From positions 102,013-166,012 of IMG/VR virus record IMGVR_UViG_3300033273_000550: 64,000 nt of DNA; one strand, given 5' to 3'. The position numbers and the translations under genes are program-made. The notes beneath the pieces are model-generated. The model had not been told where the DNA came from. It saw nothing but the letters and a program-made list of their open reading frames with translations, and did no database searches. Below are positions 51,901 through 58,654 of this stretch, one piece after another; within the stretch, counting starts at the first letter, position 1; the number at the start of each line of letters is the position of its first letter. Origin of the DNA: a virus.

Positions 51901-51955
51901 TTATAACGGCTCTATTTATGATATGTCTCAATACGATAAATGGGAAACTAAATAA
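48941..51955 (+). CDS. Baseplate hub protein with C-terminal M23 peptidase
   Basis: Hub-like N-terminus (LYFRPGMSLLVEWG); C-terminal HQGWD, APISG.V, VTKGQPIG, PHLHVE. Confidence 0.8.
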   Translation: MSLGYNSNFKIHVPITSGSIEQLKVRSKILSKKERTERDILYLSSRAPWVKVSSAVNVVDGDEKTKDYLLAEENVLAGGTYDASSGKYKSGIFEKVSSYNLSEPGEGYRPVPGVVGITSQYLGTYGTYKETTIDIQVNSLDQLDLMDKLYFRPGMSLLVEWGHSVYATSTKNDYQIVNNIETVSNFFAATGQTGYKSISDVNKAIDEIKVKSGFNYDAAYGQIVNFNWTVNDDMTYTCSVRMLSHGSLIESLGLLSNASSNTGTLFAGEGEDVEDKPLSSGLTLLHDVFSAIMSLEDFTEATTNELTWDKLTENNQKKLGPLVAEVLTNVNSIGKSNGRPFNYVPFKYEGDKSEKTKYLRFIQISDFLNLVNEIFCPKNDGVLLAGFYTGEVDDNDAPINTTPYLTFPDHISADPSRVLFRSKTISDPFRYKIIEDFPEEENDILNIYVEVGFLLRTVESIVNRNSESDQTVYDFVYSIIKQVQSVMGDVNEFDIHPDGELNYIVDRKVLPTKSLLESKDAYIELRGSKSPVRGINITSEITNDLSTTLAIGATAGNTDLSNDVLNLQKWNENLEDRILHKIRFIDSKTKFRAKYDSTMQDRIKIQNFRNLSIFVGKVNYYKVSYENNEFNAKLHETSIWEKAGQAIRAYFNTGVVFYADKKYPKGAININAYDEVNISGLHKKCMQELLILNTIKQGENPPGLIPIDLSFIVDGLASFNIGEAFGVKKGVLPSKYDDTVGFIVTGIDHNIGTDGWTTQITGRMFIPDTIEKADIQDLPVAEEIVTTEIKDFLSDFEFAPIFMSPTGKQPISRNDLDVVYPTEIGLTQPRTTIVGAPQPGAPRGERKHQGWDIKTKAENAIYAPISGRVQWVSRFSVGKAKFRGIVGSGNSGKPKFFTKKDLRGGGYLKVVGTGEYEGWEFKIGYTKPNNNYEPNMEVTKGQPIGKALDLNVINTVRVGDQVHVYGGYDTTENDTDRMDPHLHVEARYNGSIYDMSQYDKWETK

Positions 51956-52467
51956 TGTACATACCAGAAGGAAAATATAAAAAAGCTGTCTACACCCAAG
52001 GTGGTGATTTAATAAATGAAAATGGTACAGAGTATCAAGGATGGTACTTTGAAGACTATAAAGGTAGAATATTCTCTGGTAAAAAGCCTGAAAAAAAATC
52101 TAAAAGACTTCTTAAACTTTCTGATGAAGAAGATGCTTTTGCTCAAATGACTTTTACTTCTGAAAAAATTGAACCTACAGAACTAGATTATGAAAATGGT
52201 ACTTTTACAAGATACTTTCTTCAAAACTTCCGTACCTCTAAAATAATAGAAGTAACTAAACAGAAATGGTTAGCTATAAAAGGAAAAAATAGAACAGCTT
52301 TTGCTAAGATAGAATGGATACTCAAAGGTCCTGCTGATAATGTTAAAAAAGGAGATTATATTTACTTCGGTGCAGAAGCTAAAAATAAAGAATTAGTTGA
52401 AGAACAAGTAGGAATTAAGAATTTAAAAGACTATATTACTGATTATAGAGAGTTTGTTAAAGACTAG
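51955..52467 (+). CDS. Hypothetical baseplate-associated protein
   Basis: 170 aa, TAATG-coupled to hub gene. Confidence 0.6.
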   Translation: MYIPEGKYKKAVYTQGGDLINENGTEYQGWYFEDYKGRIFSGKKPEKKSKRLLKLSDEEDAFAQMTFTSEKIEPTELDYENGTFTRYFLQNFRTSKIIEVTKQKWLAIKGKNRTAFAKIEWILKGPADNVKKGDYIYFGAEAKNKELVEEQVGIKNLKDYITDYREFVKD

Positions 52468-52496
52468 TTGCTAGTTTAAGATAAAAAGGTTATATT
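52468..52496 (+). promoter_or_regulatory. Sigma70-like promoter TTGCTA-N17-TATATT
   Basis: -35 at 52468-52473, -10 at 52491-52496, upstream of PolA-like gene. Confidence 0.65.
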
Positions 52497-52512: not shown

Positions 52513-53838
52513 GTGTTTTATATAGTAGAATCAGATACTCAATTAGACAGGTTAGATAAGCTTCATAGATTCGGAGCCTTTATTTACGTTATTCCTGATA
52601 ACTTTAATTTTCATCCAAAGTTAACAGATACTTGTGCTGTTTATGTTAGACCGTTAAATAGTAAACATGGATTTATAGTTCCTATTAAACACTCAGAAGG
52701 ACTTAATGTTGAAAAAGAACGTATCTACGAAATACTTAAAAAATATAGTAAACTTTATACTATAGATAAGAAAGAACTACTATACCACTTTAATTTACAG
52801 CAGAGCATTGATGTATCTTTACTTCATTCGATGACTACATATGAAAGATTAGAATATAATAAAGATCATTCTTTAGTAAATAATTTTTATAATAAGCATA
52901 ATTCTAAATCTGATATCAATGCAATCATACCTTTATCGATTTTGTATAAAGTATGTGAAAAAATTCATGATCAAGTAAAATCCTCAATGGATTTTGTGAT
53001 TCCCGCAGGCTTTGACTTCTATAATTCGACTGCAACTAATGTTTTTTACTTGTTAGAACAGTCTGGAATGGGTATTTATTATAAAGCCTTTAACGAATTA
53101 TTTAAACCTCGTAACCCGATATATAACACAGTAGATAATAAAGTTTTAACCTATTATAATTTATACAATGCAACCTCTAGACCTACTAATGCTTTTAATT
53201 CTGTCAACTTCGCTGCTATACCTAAGGGTGACCAGTATAGGAAGGCTTTCCGTCCCCAAGGCGACTACTTTGTGGAGTTCGATTTTGATGGTTACCACCT
53301 TAGGCTACTTTGCGATCAAATTGGCTATAAGCTAACGAACGAATCCGCACATAAGCAGCTAGCTAAGTTATATTTTGAAAAGGATGAAATATCCGATGAT
53401 GAATATGCTCAAGCTAAACAGATTAACTTTCATGCTATTTACGGGAAGATACCTGAGAAATACGCTTTTCTTGAAGTCTTCGAAAAAATACAGCAATATA
53501 TTAACTCATTATGGGTAAAGTATGAAGGGGTGGGTGTAGTACATAATCCAATGACTGAGAAACCTTTTACTGAGAAGTTAAAAGATATGAACCCTCAGAA
53601 GCTGATGAATTATATGATGCAGTCGTTGGAAACTTCAAGAAACATTCTTATCTTAAAAGAAGTACTTAGGTATCTTGATAAAAAGCGCACTAAAGTATGT
53701 TTGTATACTTATGATGCGCTTCTTTTTGATTTTTATAAAGAAGATGGTAAGGAAACTTTAGAAGATTTGAAAAAAATACTAGAAGAAGGTGGAAAATACC
53801 CAGTTAAATTTAAATACTCGGAGAATCTAGTTTTATGA
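52513..53838 (+). CDS. Short, divergent family A DNA polymerase-like protein
   Basis: TSRP, motif A DFDGYHLR, motif B AKQINFHAIYG, NY..Q, motif C YTYDALLF; GTG start. Confidence 0.8.
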   Translation: MFYIVESDTQLDRLDKLHRFGAFIYVIPDNFNFHPKLTDTCAVYVRPLNSKHGFIVPIKHSEGLNVEKERIYEILKKYSKLYTIDKKELLYHFNLQQSIDVSLLHSMTTYERLEYNKDHSLVNNFYNKHNSKSDINAIIPLSILYKVCEKIHDQVKSSMDFVIPAGFDFYNSTATNVFYLLEQSGMGIYYKAFNELFKPRNPIYNTVDNKVLTYYNLYNATSRPTNAFNSVNFAAIPKGDQYRKAFRPQGDYFVEFDFDGYHLRLLCDQIGYKLTNESAHKQLAKLYFEKDEISDDEYAQAKQINFHAIYGKIPEKYAFLEVFEKIQQYINSLWVKYEGVGVVHNPMTEKPFTEKLKDMNPQKLMNYMMQSLETSRNILILKEVLRYLDKKRTKVCLYTYDALLFDFYKEDGKETLEDLKKILEEGGKYPVKFKYSENLVL

Positions 53839-53860: not shown

Positions 53861-54310
53861 ATGTCAGTAGTTGTAAGTCCTCAATTCGATTATGATATTG
53901 AGCCTTTATATTTAAATGAAGATATGAGTAACAAACTATTCTGTACTTTCGCTACAGAAGATTCTCTTGATACAGTATTAGAGCAAATTCAAGATAAGTA
54001 CAAGATTATTTATAATAAAATATTCGTTTTATATTCCAAAAGTCAAGACGAATATATTTGTACTTATAATGTGGATTTCGGTAACGTAAGTACTTTCCTA
54101 GAAAATACTATTCTAGTACATAGAAAGAAAGAATCTAACACTCTCTATACTATTAATGCGTTAAATACTCTAATAAAAGAACTCAACGAAGGAGTTCTAG
54201 ATACTTCTTATAGAGTAAACTGGAATGATTTCAGAAACTGCATTCTTCTTACTAAAGGTCCTGAGCTAAAAAGAATTAATACAAGATTATTTAAAATTCT
54301 TGAATTATAG
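53861..54310 (+). CDS. Conserved-looking hypothetical protein
   Basis: KLFCTF...VHRKKESNTLYTINALN motif; between polymerase and SSB. Confidence 0.65.
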   Translation: MSVVVSPQFDYDIEPLYLNEDMSNKLFCTFATEDSLDTVLEQIQDKYKIIYNKIFVLYSKSQDEYICTYNVDFGNVSTFLENTILVHRKKESNTLYTINALNTLIKELNEGVLDTSYRVNWNDFRNCILLTKGPELKRINTRLFKILEL

Positions 54311-54339
54311 TTGCTCGTTCGATCTTAATTAGCTATATT
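54311..54339 (+). promoter_or_regulatory. Sigma70-like promoter TTGCTC-N17-TATATT
   Basis: -35 at 54311-54316, -10 at 54334-54339, upstream of SSB gene. Confidence 0.65.
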
Positions 54340-54367: not shown

Positions 54368-55171
54368 ATGGATTTAAATGCGATTAAGGCTAAACTAGAT
54401 GCCTTGAACAACAACGGTCAGCAAAAAGAAAAAACTGACTATTCGACAATTTTTTGGAAACCTGAATTAGGTAAACAAACTGTTAGAATTGTTCCGTCTG
54501 CTTACGATCCTACTTTTCCTTTTAAAGAGTTGAAATTTCACTATGGTGTGGGGAAGTATCCAATGGTGTCTTTATCAAACTTTGGTAAACAAGACCCTAT
54601 TGAAGAATTCGTAAAAGAACTTAGAAAGACAAACGACAAGGATAACTGGTCCCTATCAGGTAAACTTAATCCTAAAACTAGAATCTTTGCTCCTGTAATA
54701 GTTAGAGGAGAAGAAGATAAAGGTGTTAGGTTATGGGGATTCGGTATTACTATCTACAAAGCTCTTCTGGCATTAGCTGAAGATGAGGATGTAGGTGACT
54801 ATACTGATGTTATTAACGGATGGGATTTAATCGTTGAGCAACAACAAGGTAACCCTTACCCGACTACTACTGTTAGAATTAAACCTAAACAGACTCCATT
54901 ATCAGATAATAATGATTTAGTAGATACGTGGTTAAAGACTCAACCTAATCCTACTGAAGTACACACTCAGTATGACTACGAATTTATTAAAAAGCAATTA
55001 CAGAATTATCTTAACCCTGGATCTGCTGAAGATTCTGCTCCAGCAGCATTACCAGGAGGTTCGGATACTGTAGAATCTGCTGCTCCTCAAAAGACTGACT
55101 TTACATTGGAAACTGCTACGTCAGGTAACCAAGATACAGTTAGTAAATTTGACGACTTATTTAATGAGTAA
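54368..55171 (+). CDS. Single-stranded DNA-binding protein (T4 gp32-like)
   Basis: FWKP..G...VRIVP, DPIEE, V.VRGEE..GV.LW.FG, D......G.D, acidic tail FDDLFNE. Confidence 0.85.
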   Translation: MDLNAIKAKLDALNNNGQQKEKTDYSTIFWKPELGKQTVRIVPSAYDPTFPFKELKFHYGVGKYPMVSLSNFGKQDPIEEFVKELRKTNDKDNWSLSGKLNPKTRIFAPVIVRGEEDKGVRLWGFGITIYKALLALAEDEDVGDYTDVINGWDLIVEQQQGNPYPTTTVRIKPKQTPLSDNNDLVDTWLKTQPNPTEVHTQYDYEFIKKQLQNYLNPGSAEDSAPAALPGGSDTVESAAPQKTDFTLETATSGNQDTVSKFDDLFNE

Positions 55172-55177
55172 CTCATC

Positions 55178-55205
55178 AGGCCGCTAAGGCGGCCTTTTAC
55201 TTTTA
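55178..55205 (+). terminator. Rho-independent terminator
   Basis: aggccgc-taag-gcggcct + tttacttttattt. Confidence 0.85.
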
Positions 55206-55212
55206 TTTAATT

Positions 55213-56286
55213 ATGGCTAAAAAGAAACAAGAGGTCCAGGATAGGGCCACGGAGGCGGTACGTAAATCTTTCAACTTAGGTAACTTTAAAAAGAAGAAAG
55301 GATTCTCTAATGCTTCTGTAAAATTTAAAGAACAAGGCTGGATTCCTTTATCCAAAGCTTTTCAAGATATAACTTCACTACCTGGTATTCCTACCGGACA
55401 TATTACCCTACTTAGAGGACATAGTGATACTGGAAAAACTACTGCATTAATTGAAGCTGCAGTAAATGCTCAAAAAATGGGTGTACTTCCAGTTTTTATT
55501 ATTACTGAGATGAAATGGTCTTGGGAACATGCTAAAGAAATGGGTCTTCAAGTAGAAGAGGTTAAAGATGAAGCTGGTAATGTTATAGATTATGAAGGAC
55601 ATTTCCTTTATGCTGATAGAGGTACGTTAAATACTATAGAAGATGTAGCAGTTTATATTGCAGATCTAATGGATGAACAAGCTAAAGGTAATCTACCTTT
55701 CGATATGTGCTTCTTCTGGGATAGTATTGGTTCAGTACCCTGTGAATTATCAGTAAAATCAAATAAGAATAATAACGAATGGAATGCCGGTGCGATGTCT
55801 ACTCAGTTTGGTAATAATCTTAATCAAAAGATTCTATTATCAAGAAAAGAAAACTCACCGTATACTAATACTATGGTAGCTATTAATAAGGTTTGGACTA
55901 TGAAACCTGAATCACCTATGGGTATGCCGAAATTACAGAATAAAGGAGGTATGTCGATGTGGTACGATGCTACTTTAGTAGTAACATTCGGTAATATTAC
56001 TAACCCAGGTACTTCTAAGATTAAAGCTATCAAAAACGGTATGCAAGTAGAGTTCGCTAAAAGAACAAACGTACAGATAGAAAAGAATCATATCGGAGGA
56101 GTACAGTCTAGAGGTAGAATCGTAATGACTCAACACGGTTTTATTGAAGACGATAAACGAGCTATTGATAAGTATAAAGACGAACACAAAGACCACTGGT
56201 TAAAGTTAGTTGGTAGTTTAGACTTTGATTTAATTGAGGAGGGTGATTTAGAAGAAACACCAATTTCACCTAACTTACTTGATTAA
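55213..56286 (+). CDS. uvsX: RecA/UvsX-like recombinase
   Basis: GIPTGHITLLRGHSDTGKTT Walker A, FFWDSIGS Walker B, INKVW, GG. Confidence 0.9.
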   Translation: MAKKKQEVQDRATEAVRKSFNLGNFKKKKGFSNASVKFKEQGWIPLSKAFQDITSLPGIPTGHITLLRGHSDTGKTTALIEAAVNAQKMGVLPVFIITEMKWSWEHAKEMGLQVEEVKDEAGNVIDYEGHFLYADRGTLNTIEDVAVYIADLMDEQAKGNLPFDMCFFWDSIGSVPCELSVKSNKNNNEWNAGAMSTQFGNNLNQKILLSRKENSPYTNTMVAINKVWTMKPESPMGMPKLQNKGGMSMWYDATLVVTFGNITNPGTSKIKAIKNGMQVEFAKRTNVQIEKNHIGGVQSRGRIVMTQHGFIEDDKRAIDKYKDEHKDHWLKLVGSLDFDLIEEGDLEETPISPNLLD

Positions 56287-57305
56287 TGGCTTACGACGAT
56301 ATTCTAAAGAATTTAAAGCAGACCCCACCCCCTGAGTTGAACGATCACGTTCTAGTGATCGATGCTATGAATATGTTAATTCGTAGCTTTTCATTACTCA
56401 AAGCGATGAGCCCATCTGGTCACCACATAGGTGGCTTGGTGGGATTCATGCGCTCACTTGGTTATGTAACAAGAATTTTTGACCCTACTAGAGTAATTAT
56501 AGTATGGGACGGTAAAGGAGGTTCTGGTAATAGGCAGAATATTGATCCAAATTATAAAGCACACAGAGCAAATACTAGAATTACCCACTGGGGATTATAC
56601 GATACTAAAGAAGAAGAGACAGAAGCGTTAATTGGACAGTTATTTAGAACTAAAGACTATCTAGAATGCCTTCCGGTACAGCAGATTATGATGGAAAAGT
56701 TAGAAGCTGATGATATTATAGCATACCTAGCTTCTCAAATTACCAAGAGTAATAAAAAGATGACAATTATATCATCGGATAAAGACTTCTTACAGTTAGT
56801 TAACAGTAATATAAACGTATATGCTCCAGTTAAAAAGAAAACCTTTACAATTGATAATATAAAGGAAGAACTAAAGGTAATTCCAGAAAATTACAATATA
56901 GTTAAAGCCTTATTAGGTGATAATTCAGACGGTTTAAGAGGAGTAAAAGGATTAGGTATAAAAACTATAGTTAATGAGTTTCCTATGCTTACCACAGATC
57001 CTAATATGACGTTAGATTATGTGTTTGATACTTGTGAATCTAATTTAGAAGGTAAAAAAATCTTTGCTAAAATTCTTCATAATTGGGATAAGGTAAATAC
57101 TAATTTTGAATTAATGGATTTACATGAGTCTGTGTTGGATGATAGAGAAAAAAAGACTATATTGGATATAATAAAAAGTGATATACCTGATCTTCAGACA
57201 GGAGCTTTCCTTCACTTGTTAGATGTAGATAAGATTGAAGGAATAACAAAGAATACTGAAGGATGGTTAGAAACTTTTAGGGGTTTAACGGTTTTTAAAA
57301 AATAG
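56286..57305 (+). CDS. 5'-3' exonuclease / RNase H (T4 Rnh, PolI N-terminal-like)
   Basis: IDAMN, WDG, YKAHR, EADD, SSDKDFLQL, GDNSD..GVKGLG.KT. Confidence 0.95.
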   Translation: MAYDDILKNLKQTPPPELNDHVLVIDAMNMLIRSFSLLKAMSPSGHHIGGLVGFMRSLGYVTRIFDPTRVIIVWDGKGGSGNRQNIDPNYKAHRANTRITHWGLYDTKEEETEALIGQLFRTKDYLECLPVQQIMMEKLEADDIIAYLASQITKSNKKMTIISSDKDFLQLVNSNINVYAPVKKKTFTIDNIKEELKVIPENYNIVKALLGDNSDGLRGVKGLGIKTIVNEFPMLTTDPNMTLDYVFDTCESNLEGKKIFAKILHNWDKVNTNFELMDLHESVLDDREKKTILDIIKSDIPDLQTGAFLHLLDVDKIEGITKNTEGWLETFRGLTVFKK

Positions 57306-57313
57306 GTTATTAA

Positions 57314-58654
57314 ATGACATTAAAAAGTTTACAGAATTACGGTAAAGGATTTCAGTTAAAAGTATTAGGATCTCTTCTTACCGATAAAAAGTTTCTTCTC
57401 AATGTAAGAGACGTACTATATGATCACTACTTTGATGCTGATTCTCATAAATGGATAGTAAAGCAGATTTGTGATTACTTTGATAAGTATCATACTAACA
57501 TTACTATGGATGTTCTTAAAGTAGAACTTCAGAAAGTAGAGAACGAAGTGCTTCAAGTTGCTTTGAAAGAAGAACTCAGAAATTCCTATCAAGCATCTCA
57601 AGAAGATTTAGAATATGTACAAGAAGAATTTACCACTTTTTGTAAGAATCAAGAGATGAAAAATGCTATCTTAAATTCTGCTGATCTACTTAAAGATGGA
57701 GATTTTGATGGTATTAGAAATATGATTGAAAAGGCTATGAAAGCCGGAATGGATAAAAATATTGGTCATGAATATAACAAAGATGTTGAAACGAGATATC
57801 GTATTGATTACCGTCCTACTATCCCTAGCCCTTGGCCTATACTTAACGAAGGTATTCAAGGAGGATTTGGCCCAGGAGATCTTGGAATTGTGTTTGGTAA
57901 TCCTGGTGGGGGTAAAAGCTGGACTATGGTCGCTATTGCTGCTCACGCAGTACAACTCGGATACAAAGTTAATTACTACACGCTGGAACTCGGGGAGGAT
58001 TATGTTGGTAAGCGTTTTGATTGTTACTTTACTGGTTATTCTATTGACGAGGTAAATAAGCATAGAAAAGAAGTTCAAGCTCATGTAGATAACTTAAAAG
58101 GTAAGTTAATAGTTAAAGAATACGCTCCTAAATCAGCTACTGTAGGTACTATTAGATCTCATATTCAAAAATGTGTGGATATGGAGCATAAACCTGATTT
58201 GGTTATTATTGATTATGTAGATTATCTTAGAGCACCTTCTAAATCTAAATTTAGCGAAAGAAAAGATGAGATTGATGATGTATTTATCGCTACTAAAGGT
58301 TTAGCTAAAGAGCTTAAAATACCTATTCTTACTCCTTCTCAGGTTAACAGAATGGGAGCTAAAGATTCAGTTATTGAAGGAGATAAAGCAGCTGGGTCTT
58401 ATGATAAAATGATGGTAGCAGATATTTGTTTATCATTATCAAGACAGAAAGAAGATAAAGTATTAGGTACTGGTAGAGTTCACGTAATGAAAAATAGATA
58501 TGGACAAGACGGTATGACTTATAATGTAAAAATGGATACTAATAACGGTCATATTGAGTTCGAAGGTAAGGCTGATCCTTCTGATCTAATACCTGACAGT
58601 CAAGATAAACCTAAATTCAACTTGACTAGAGAACAAATGTCAAAATTATTGTAA
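57314..58654 (+). CDS. DnaB-family replicative helicase (T4 gp41-like)
   Basis: GNPGGGKS, YTLEL, IIDYVD, TPSQVNR, KNRYG. Confidence 0.95.
   Translation: MTLKSLQNYGKGFQLKVLGSLLTDKKFLLNVRDVLYDHYFDADSHKWIVKQICDYFDKYHTNITMDVLKVELQKVENEVLQVALKEELRNSYQASQEDLEYVQEEFTTFCKNQEMKNAILNSADLLKDGDFDGIRNMIEKAMKAGMDKNIGHEYNKDVETRYRIDYRPTIPSPWPILNEGIQGGFGPGDLGIVFGNPGGGKSWTMVAIAAHAVQLGYKVNYYTLELGEDYVGKRFDCYFTGYSIDEVNKHRKEVQAHVDNLKGKLIVKEYAPKSATVGTIRSHIQKCVDMEHKPDLVIIDYVDYLRAPSKSKFSERKDEIDDVFIATKGLAKELKIPILTPSQVNRMGAKDSVIEGDKAAGSYDKMMVADICLSLSRQKEDKVLGTGRVHVMKNRYGQDGMTYNVKMDTNNGHIEFEGKADPSDLIPDSQDKPKFNLTREQMSKLL

What the first reader, a model, noticed from the sequence alone, without database searches (positions are those of the whole stretch)
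52513..53838. Miniature PolA with steric-gate and motif substitutions
Seen: 441 aa with both catalytic Asp residues kept. Motif A reads DFDGYHLR, so His replaces the Glu equivalent to Klenow E710. In motif B, Tyr replaces the R754-equivalent and His follows NF. Motif C is YDA instead of HDE. Much of the thumb region appears absent. Established: E710 is the ribose steric gate in family A polymerases. Inference: this may not be the main replicase. It could incorporate rNTPs or modified nucleotides (primer synthesis, repair), working with the adjacent gp32, 5' exonuclease and helicase.
Basis: partly seen in the sequence, partly recalled or inferred. Interest (0 to 1): 0.65.

Follow-up and report, generated by a model that had tools for sequence, protein, structure and literature searches.

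The report
Thumbless second phage polymerase (divPolA1)
This gene encodes a small Pol I-type polymerase with no thumb, dead proofreading and an altered nucleotide pocket; it belongs to divPolA1, a family described by computation in 2024 and never assayed, which large aquatic phages carry beside their main replicase.

Summary
ORF 52513-53838 encodes 441 aa with both catalytic Asp. His sits at the Klenow E710 position, Tyr at R754 and Y-D-A replaces H-D-E. About 80 residues of thumb are missing.

The protein is not a one-off. It is 62% identical to gp001 of Flavobacterium phage immuto, a named member of divPolA1 (Yutin et al., Virol J 2024;21:200). This scan has already met the same family on other DNA.

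The same genome encodes a complete 778-aa PolA with intact exonuclease motifs. Every other fairly complete genome I checked also carries a full-size PolA or PolB.

Three points I did not find in the passages of the paper I read:
- The substitutions are a family-wide signature (His in 100 of 102 diverse members).
- A 149-aa gene of unknown fold, p149, always follows the polymerase. It occurs in exactly the same 6 of 50,697 phage records.
- Two copies of the phage's promoter-like motif bracket the pair.

Most likely this is a catalytic, non-proofreading, low-processivity accessory polymerase of the gp32/UvsX/FEN/DnaB module. Ribonucleotide use is possible but untested. It is a new member of a known, unassayed family; interest is moderate.

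The parts
52468..52496 (+). Promoter-like motif TTG-N20-TATATT, ending 16 nt before the GTG start of the polymerase gene
   Evidence: There are 7 copies in the window against 2.8 expected, and none of 100 shuffles reached 7.
52513..53838 (+). divPolA1-family polymerase, 441 aa, GTG start
   Evidence: It is 62% identical to immuto gp001. Pfam DNA_pol_A scores 35.8 bits against a cut-off of 34.3. Z is about 27 to Pol I large fragments over residues 1-441.
52513..52917 (+). N-terminal domain (about residues 1-135): a vestigial 3'-5' exonuclease-like fold with no catalytic carboxylate motif
   Evidence: The whole model aligns to Bst chain 300-876. There is no Pfam DNA_pol_A_exo1 hit. The first strand reads AFIYVIP, with no D-x-E. 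H34, H60, K87 and D100 are nearly invariant.
52933..53112 (+). Thumb stump (about residues 141-200); roughly 80 residues of the Pol I thumb are absent
53155..53226 (+). Motif 2 (YNLYNATSRPTN...); R223 matches Klenow R668 and is invariant
53269..53310 (+). Motif A (FVEFDFDGYHLRLL): D257 matches D705, Y261 is at the I709 position, H262 is at the E710 steric-gate position
53398..53448 (+). Motif B / O-helix (DEYAQAKQINFHAIYGK): Y298 at the R754 position, K302 = K758, F306 = F762, Y310 = Y766
53599..53643 (+). Motif 6 (KLMNYMMQSLETSRN): Q370 matches Q849 and is invariant; E373 is invariant
53695..53733 (+). Motif C (VCLYTYDALLFDF): Y400 at the H881 position, D401 = D882, A402 at the E883 position, D406 invariant
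53861..54310 (+). p149: a 149-aa protein of unknown family that always accompanies the polymerase
   Evidence: It is adjacent in all 78 IMG/VR loci that reach far enough. It is found beside distant family members. It occurs in the same 6 of 50,697 phage records as the polymerase. No Pfam, PHROG or PDB relative was found.
54311..54339 (+). Second promoter-like motif TTG-N20-TATATT, starting one base after the p149 stop codon and lying before gp32
54368..55171 (+). gp32-like single-stranded DNA binding protein
55178..55195 (+). Terminator-like G+C-rich hairpin with a T run, just after gp32
55213..56286 (+). UvsX/RecA-like recombinase
56286..57305 (+). Separate 5'-3' exonuclease (FEN), the domain that is fused to the polymerase in bacterial Pol I
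57314..58654 (+). DnaB-like replicative helicase

Best explanation
The gene is a member of divPolA1, a divergent branch of family A polymerases. These are compact Klenow-like proteins whose proofreading domain is a dead scaffold and whose thumb is nearly deleted. Their nucleotide pocket is remodelled: His for the steric-gate Glu, Tyr for the triphosphate-binding Arg, and Tyr-Asp-Ser/Ala for His-Asp-Glu.

The protein keeps the two metal-binding Asp, the O-helix Lys, Phe and Tyr, and the two residues that read the minor groove of the primer terminus (R668 and Q849 equivalents). It should therefore still carry out template-directed synthesis from a primer. Without a thumb or proofreading, it would do so in short, distributive runs.

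I infer that it is the second, accessory polymerase of the phage's gp32/UvsX/FEN/DnaB replication-recombination module. It is probably co-transcribed with, and may work with, the 149-aa protein p149. Likely tasks are short-patch synthesis: filling gaps after the separate FEN removes primers, extending primers, or extending recombination D-loops. The 778-aa proofreading PolA encoded elsewhere in the genome would do the bulk copying.

Shown: family membership, fold, conserved residues, gene order and the presence of a second polymerase. Inferred: catalytic activity, low processivity, the partnership with p149 and the actual task.
For: Family and fold:
- The protein is 62% identical over its full length to immuto gp001, a phage named as a divPolA1 carrier in PMC11348598.
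- The AlphaFold model has pLDDT 96.8. Its best matches are Pol I large fragments: Foldseek E 7e-18, and Z about 27 with about 410 residues aligned over residues 1-441.
- About 80 residues of thumb are deleted, and no exonuclease signature is detectable.

Conservation:
- R223, D257, K302, Q370, E373, D401 and D406 are invariant. H262, F306, Y310 and Y400 are conserved in at least 96% of 102 members that are 26-74% identical to the query.
- dN/dS is about 0.18, so the gene is under purifying selection.

Second polymerase:
- The same genome has a 778-aa PolA scoring 196 bits, with a Pfam 3'-5' exonuclease hit of 47 bits.
- Immuto and five immuto-like IMG/VR genomes also have a full-size PolA.
- Mel-JY01, LR756508.1 and a 168-kb IMG/VR genome have a full-size PolB instead.

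Context:
- The order polymerase, p149, gp32, RecA/UvsX, FEN, DnaB is conserved in 70+ loci and in members about 30% identical.
- p149 and the polymerase occur in the same 6 of 50,697 phage records.
- Promoter-like motifs bracket the pair.

Precedent: a thumb-truncated Klenow stays active but loses processivity and fidelity (Minnick 1996, as cited in PMC10061031).
Against: - No member of the family has been assayed, so activity, substrate and processivity are all inferred.
- In Klenow, the residues equivalent to Y298 (R754) and A402 (E883) matter for catalysis (my own knowledge). Their loss could mean poor or different chemistry.
- The polymerase sits in the conserved replication array, while the full-size polymerase lies among nucleotide-modification genes and differs between relatives (family A, B or C). 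One could read this as the small enzyme being the core replicase. The 2024 paper itself calls the role of the 'regular' polymerases 'less obvious'.
- T4, T7 and T5 need no separate gap-filling polymerase (my own knowledge).
- The polymerase evolves about 2.5 times faster than p149, gp32 and UvsX (dS is near saturation, so the ratios are rough).
Confidence: 0.55

Rival explanations
1. divPolA1, perhaps with p149 and other module proteins supplying the missing grip on DNA, is the core replicase. The full-size PolA, PolB or PolC would then serve repair or another specialised task.
For: divPolA1 is the constant element of the conserved gp32/UvsX/FEN/DnaB array. The full-size polymerase belongs to different families in related phages and lies among nucleotide-modification and chaperonin genes (PMC11348598). 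[quoted passage not shown]
Against: A polymerase with no thumb and no proofreading is a poor fit for copying 160-190 kb or more. The full-size PolA has intact ExoI-III motifs and canonical motifs A and B. Swapping of the main replicase between related phages is the general pattern that the same paper documents, so variability does not argue against a replicase role for the full-size enzyme. No genome checked carries divPolA1 alone.
Confidence: 0.15
2. The remodelled pocket relaxes or reverses sugar selection. The enzyme would then make or extend RNA or mixed primers (a Pol alpha-like or primase-like role), or act as a small RNA polymerase.
For: His replaces the steric-gate Glu in 100 of 102 members, and the neighbouring I709 position is Tyr or Phe. 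The consensus motif C, Y-D-S, resembles the H-D-S of T7 RNA polymerase (my own knowledge). Two precedents exist for small thumb-reduced enzymes of this fold that work with a small partner: CCPol-MP primase (PMC7581432, PMC10061031) and N4 RNAPII (PMC4496689). The 2024 paper raises an RNA polymerase reading for the sister group divPolA2.
Against: F306 (the F762 position), which packs against the deoxyribose in DNA polymerases, is kept in 98 of 102 members. His is bulky and could still block a 2'-OH. The only Pfam hit is DNA_pol_A, and no RNA polymerase is among the top 50 rows shown by either structure search. The Arg of the RNA polymerase motif B (R-x3-K) is also missing. The genome has a DnaG-type primase (immuto gp091). 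The p149 model is ferredoxin-like in its N-terminal half (pLDDT 73) and matched no OB-fold SSB such as MP.
Confidence: 0.15
3. It is a polymerase-shaped protein that no longer catalyses synthesis and serves as a scaffold or DNA-end binding subunit of the replication module.
For: The counterparts of R754 and E883, both important for catalysis in Klenow (my own knowledge), are lost family-wide. The thumb and O1-helix region are trimmed. The gene evolves faster than its neighbours.
Against: Both metal-binding Asp, the O-helix Lys, Y766, F762, R668 and Q849 equivalents are invariant or nearly so across members down to 26% identity. That pattern is what catalysis would select for and is hard to explain for a mere scaffold.
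Confidence: 0.05

Closest known systems
divPolA1 (Yutin, Tolstoy, Mutz, Wolf, Krupovic, Koonin; Virol J 2024;21:200; PMC11348598)
   Same: It is 62% identical to the copy in Flavobacterium phage immuto, one of the named carriers. It shares the truncated thumb, dead exonuclease domain, retained palm catalytic residues, the same downstream replication genes, and a 'regular' polymerase in the same genome.
   Different: Nothing excludes it from the family. The paper lists 14 phages, whereas I find more than 1000 clusters at 50% identity, a Microcystis phage and a 484-kb phage. In the passages I read, the paper does not discuss the His at the steric gate (the word 'steric' does not occur in it), the lost Arg and Glu, or the 149-aa companion gene.
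Pol I large fragment (Klenow, Bst, Taq)
   Same: The overall fold matches over the whole length (Z about 27). Equivalents of D705, D882, K758, F762, Y766, R668, R682 and Q849 are kept. As in Bst and Taq, the exonuclease-like domain is inactive.
   Different: About 140 residues shorter. The thumb is almost absent and the O1-helix region is trimmed. E710 is His, I709 is Tyr, R754 is Tyr, H881 is Tyr and E883 is Ala or Ser. The 5'-3' exonuclease is a separate gene.
CCPol-MP primase-polymerase of SCCmec elements (Bebel et al., eLife 2020; Rice, Front Mol Biosci 2023)
   Same: A reduced family A polymerase with a shortened thumb, encoded next to a small partner gene and a helicase.
   Different: CCPol belongs to Bacillota mobile islands and has a partial exonuclease domain or none. 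Its partner MP has an OB fold, whereas the p149 model is ferredoxin-like in its N-terminal half. There is no detectable sequence relation, and binding and priming are untested here.
Phage N4 RNA polymerase II (gp15/gp16) and T7-like RNA polymerases
   Same: A minimal enzyme of the same superfamily with a truncated thumb that depends on cofactors. The family consensus Y-D-S resembles H-D-S.
   Different: There is no Pfam or structural preference for RNA polymerases. The motif B Arg is absent. A Klenow-like N-terminal domain is present instead of a promoter-binding domain.
divPolA2 (same 2024 paper; barbaviruses)
   Same: A second, divergent, exonuclease-less PolA carried alongside a regular polymerase.
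   Different: divPolA2 has an unrelated N-terminal globular domain and a variable gene context, and it gives RNA polymerase structural hits. divPolA1 has a Klenow-like N-terminal domain and a fixed replication context.

Membership tests
divPolA1 | Sequence homology to the named members (immuto phages MW353175-7) | tested here: met
   62% identity over 441 of 441 residues, E 1e-176. The named members are listed in PMC11348598.
divPolA1 | Palm domain with the main catalytic residues kept | tested here: met
   D257 and D401 are invariant, as are K302, R223 and Q370.
divPolA1 | Truncated thumb | tested here: met
   About 80 residues are deleted relative to Bst. The model shows only a short stump.
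divPolA1 | 3'-5' exonuclease domain present but inactivated | tested here: met
   The N-terminal domain aligns structurally to the Bst N-terminal domain. There is no Pfam exonuclease hit, while the genome's large PolA scores 47 bits. There is no D-x-E on the first strand.
divPolA1 | Encoded in addition to a 'regular' polymerase in a phage genome of about 155-190 kb | tested here: met
   The genome is 191,416 bp, with a 778-aa PolA at G000:C1:188295-190631.
divPolA1 | Conserved array of replication genes downstream | tested here: met
   gp32, UvsX/RecA, FEN and DnaB follow.
Canonical Pol I-type DNA polymerase (Pfam DNA_pol_A) | Motif A D-Y-S-Q-I-E-L-R with the Glu steric gate | tested here: not met
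   The motif reads D-F-D-G-Y-H-L-R, and His is present in 100 of 102 members.
Canonical Pol I-type DNA polymerase (Pfam DNA_pol_A) | Motif B R-x3-K-x3-F-x3-Y-G | tested here: not met
   The Arg is replaced by Tyr (75 of 102 members; Arg in only 4). K, F, Y and G are kept.
Canonical Pol I-type DNA polymerase (Pfam DNA_pol_A) | Motif C H-D-E | tested here: not met
   Y-D-A here, and Y-D-S or Y-D-A across the family.
Canonical Pol I-type DNA polymerase (Pfam DNA_pol_A) | Score above the Pfam gathering threshold | tested here: met
   35.8 bits against a cut-off of 34.3, so only just.
T7-like single-subunit RNA polymerase | Match to the RNA polymerase family profile, or best structural matches among RNA polymerases | tested here: inconclusive
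   The only Pfam hit at E <= 0.01 is DNA_pol_A. No RNA polymerase is among the top 50 rows shown by either structure search. Absence from these lists does not exclude a distant relation.
CCPol-MP type primase-polymerase | Small OB-fold single-stranded DNA binding partner encoded next to the polymerase | tested here: not met
   A small partner gene is present. However, its model (pLDDT 73) is ferredoxin-like in its N-terminal half and matched no OB-fold SSB.
CCPol-MP type primase-polymerase | De novo DNA primer synthesis by the complex | not testable with these tools
   This needs biochemistry.

The most novel reading that the evidence does not exclude
divPolA1 and p149 form a two-subunit enzyme whose His-based sugar pocket and missing thumb let it accept RNA primers or ribonucleotides. 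It would be the constant primer-handling polymerase (Pol alpha-like or primase-like) of these phages' replisomes. That constancy would explain why the bulk replicase can be exchanged between families A, B and C without disturbing the rest of the module.
Probability: 0.15. Interest if true: 0.8.

Novelty: new member of a known kind. Interest (0 to 1): 0.42.

Why it matters
Family A polymerases are among the best understood enzymes, and the Glu steric gate, the O-helix Arg and the thumb are textbook features. This is a very large natural family: more than 1000 clusters at 50% identity, abundant in marine and freshwater phages. It has kept the catalytic core for a long time while dispensing with all three features.

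An assay of one member would show how much of the Pol I blueprint is really needed. It would also show whether His can act as a sugar gate. It could explain why these phages keep two polymerases and can swap the large one. A small, thumbless, exonuclease-free polymerase might also be useful as a tool. The strictly co-inherited 149-aa protein is an untouched lead.

Tried and rejected
- Complex prediction of the polymerase with p149 gave no verdict (score 0.00 against a mark of 0.32). This is neither for nor against binding.
- p149 could not be identified. There is no Pfam or PHROG hit and no PDB sequence relative. Foldseek against the PDB gave nothing below E 0.06. VIA-align gave Z of 6.5 or less, only to generic ferredoxin-like domains. 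BFVD returned only an uncharacterised homologue. The ESM Atlas was uninformative. Weak resemblance to viral origin-binding or Rep-type domains is below any threshold.
- The idea that the phage lacks a primase, so that the small polymerase must prime, is rejected. A DnaG/Toprim gene is present (immuto gp091).
- The idea that the small and large PolA are recent duplicates is rejected. hhalign between them gives only E 0.14.
- No PHROG family matches the polymerase.
- A scan of 185,579 bacterial and archaeal species genomes for close relatives found none. The profile-based scan could not be run.

Full report
**What is there.** The window is bases 102013-166012 of a 191,416-bp virus record rated complete. 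ORF 52513-53838 on the + strand starts at GTG and encodes 441 residues. Homologues begin at the same residue. Pfam DNA_pol_A matches only residues 205-424, at 35.8 bits against a cut-off of 34.3. No PHROG family matches. The downstream genes are a 149-aa ORF of no known family (p149), a gp32-like SSB, a UvsX/RecA recombinase, a separate 5'-3' exonuclease (FEN) and a DnaB-like helicase.

**The motifs.** Three independent alignments place H262 opposite the Pol I steric-gate Glu. These are phmmer to Aquifex Pol I, the family profile to Bst large fragment and hhalign to the genome's own large PolA. From the same alignments:
- K302 is the K758 equivalent, so Y298 lies at the R754 position.
- F306 and Y310 are the F762 and Y766 equivalents.
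- D257 and D401 are the two metal-binding Asp.
- Y400 lies at the H881 position and A402 at the E883 position.
- R223 and Q370 match R668 and Q849, the residues that read the minor groove at the primer terminus.
- R243 aligns with the R682 equivalent.

**The fold.** I built an alignment of 102 diverse homologues and obtained an AlphaFold model with mean pLDDT 96.8 and pTM 0.93. Foldseek ranks Klenow first (E 7e-18, TM 0.73). VIA-align gives Z about 27 to Bst and M. smegmatis Pol I large fragments, with about 410 residues aligned over model residues 1-441. The protein is thus a complete but compacted Klenow-like enzyme, not just a polymerase domain.
- The N-terminal 135 residues or so correspond to the exonuclease domain. 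They give no Pfam exonuclease hit, whereas the genome's large PolA scores 47 bits. The first strand reads AFIYVIP and has no D-x-E.
- The profile alignment to Bst skips about 80 residues between the base of the thumb and motif 2, so the thumb is almost gone.
- A further stretch after the Y-G of motif B, the O1-helix region, is also trimmed.

**It is a conserved family, not a decayed copy.**
- A word-indexed search found 1483 clusters at 90% identity.
- An exhaustive HMMER search found 1062 representatives at 50% identity, 469 of them below 1e-30 and nearly all 420-460 aa long.
- Across 102 members that are 26-74% identical to the query, R223, D257, K302, Q370, E373, D401 and D406 are invariant.
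- Position 262 is His in 100 (Gln in 2). Position 261 is Tyr or Phe in 99. Position 298 is Tyr in 75 (Arg in 4). F306 is kept in 98, Y310 in 100 and Y400 in 101.
- Position 402 is Ser in 74 and Ala in 27. The family consensus for motif C is therefore Y-D-S.
- The His after 'NF' is a local feature (5 of 102).
- dN/dS over 25 genome pairs is about 0.18. That indicates purifying selection, though it is looser than for p149, gp32 and UvsX (0.06-0.07). dS is near saturation, so the values are rough.

**It is already named.** An earlier follow-up note of this scan, on another genome, pointed to Yutin et al., Virol J 2024;21:200 (PMC11348598), and I read the paper. [quoted passage not shown] According to the paper:
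- Each phage also encodes a regular polymerase of family A, B or C.
- The thumb is truncated and all three exonuclease Asp are replaced.
- The palm catalytic residues are kept.
- The downstream replication genes suggest a role in replication.

The window's protein is 62% identical over its full length to immuto gp001, and the gene order is the same, so it is a member. The word 'steric' does not occur in the paper. No later paper in the library mentions divPolA1. The 2023 reclassification of PolAs shows no such group in the passages I searched.

**A second polymerase is always present.**
- This genome encodes a 778-aa PolA at G000:C1:188295-190631, outside the window. It has ExoI-III motifs, motif A DYESLEPH, motif B RNKAKAYSLGVAYG and motif C VHDQ. 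It has no PolB and no DnaE.
- Immuto has the same large PolA.
- Five immuto-like IMG/VR genomes each carry one polymerase of about 780 aa and one of about 441 aa.
- Microcystis phage Mel-JY01 has an 855-aa PolB instead.
- The 484-kb record LR756508.1 has a PolB and a DnaE-like gene.
- A 168-kb IMG/VR genome at about 30% identity has an 856-aa PolB.
- The two PolAs of this genome are only remotely related (hhalign E 0.14).

**The companion gene.**
- In every one of the 78 IMG/VR loci that extend past the polymerase, p149 follows it. It is 67-88% identical to the window's copy, which is more conserved than the polymerase itself at 46-75%.
- It is also next to or near the polymerase in Mel-JY01 and LR756508.1, and in three distant metagenomic contigs.
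- Among 50,697 phage records, the polymerase and p149 hit exactly the same six.
- A promoter-like motif, TTG-N20-TATATT, lies 16 nt before the polymerase start. A second copy begins one base after the p149 stop. There are 7 copies in the window against 2.8 expected. A strong terminator-like hairpin follows gp32. The pair therefore looks like a two-gene unit.
- p149 has at least 8000 clusters at 90% identity and no annotation.
- Its model (pLDDT 73) has a ferredoxin-like N-terminal half and a small beta-rich C-terminal half, with no informative match.

**What it most likely does.** The catalytic Asp pair, the O-helix Lys/Phe/Tyr and the minor-groove readers are the residues a template-directed, primer-dependent polymerase needs. 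They are the ones held invariant. A thumb-truncated Klenow remains active but loses processivity and fidelity (Minnick 1996, as cited in PMC10061031).

A separate full-size polymerase with proofreading is always present, and a DnaG-type primase is present too. I therefore read divPolA1 as an accessory, distributive, non-proofreading DNA polymerase of the gp32/UvsX/FEN/DnaB module. Plausible tasks are gap filling with the separate FEN, primer extension or D-loop extension. The specific task is inference.

The main rival is that divPolA1 is the constant core replicase. It draws on divPolA1's fixed place in the replication array and on the variable identity and odd neighbourhood of the large polymerase. 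The missing thumb and proofreading count against it.

His is at the gate and motif C is RNA-polymerase-like. However, F306 is DNA-polymerase-like, His is bulky, and the best structural matches are DNA polymerases.

Precedents for small thumb-reduced enzymes of this fold that need a small cofactor are CCPol-MP and N4 RNAPII. The p149 model matched no OB-fold SSB like MP.

**Verdict.** The gene is a new member of the computationally described but unassayed divPolA1 family. The family-wide active-site signature, the much larger size of the family and the strictly co-inherited p149 are additions worth testing at the bench.

Noticed in passing
window 53861-54310: p149 is a very widespread small protein of unknown function. 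It has at least 8000 clusters at 90% identity, many 80-88% identical in marine metagenomes including Tara. It has an invariant H-R-K-K-x-x-N-T-L-Y-T-I-N stretch and no family assignment.
   Followed up: partly
window 15042, 36166, 43491, 52468, 54311, 57135, 61357 (all + strand): The motif TTG-N20-TATATT occurs 7 times against 2.8 expected by chance. The copies at 52468 and 54311 both begin TTGCT and sit exactly at gene boundaries.
   Followed up: partly
G000:C1:188295-190631 (outside the window; L001:379-2715): The genome's full-size PolA has Leu at the F762 position (KAYSLGVAYG) and H-D-Q instead of H-D-E in motif C. It is followed directly by a MetK-like S-adenosylmethionine synthetase ORF (recognised by eye from the translation, not searched).
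   Followed up: no
NC_055915.1 (L003, L004): As annotated in the record, the cultured relative immuto encodes a full 7-deazaguanine set (FolE, QueD, QueE, QueC, QueF, DpdA) plus a formyltransferase-like gene beside its large PolA. Its DNA is therefore probably modified after replication. Earlier notes report the same pathway in this genome beyond the window.
   Followed up: no
window 51955-52467: A 170-aa ORF of no known family lies just upstream of the polymerase. It is conserved at only 24-45% identity across related loci and probably ends the tail and baseplate module.
   Followed up: no
L091:11406-13244 and L092:3625-5463: In one distant lineage a 612-aa ORF with no Pfam hit is inserted between divPolA1 and the p149 homologue. 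In LR756508.1 two ORFs (358 and 104 aa) sit there.
   Followed up: no
window 55178-55195: A strong G+C-rich hairpin with a T run lies immediately after gp32. It is the only clear terminator-like site in the replication array.
   Followed up: no
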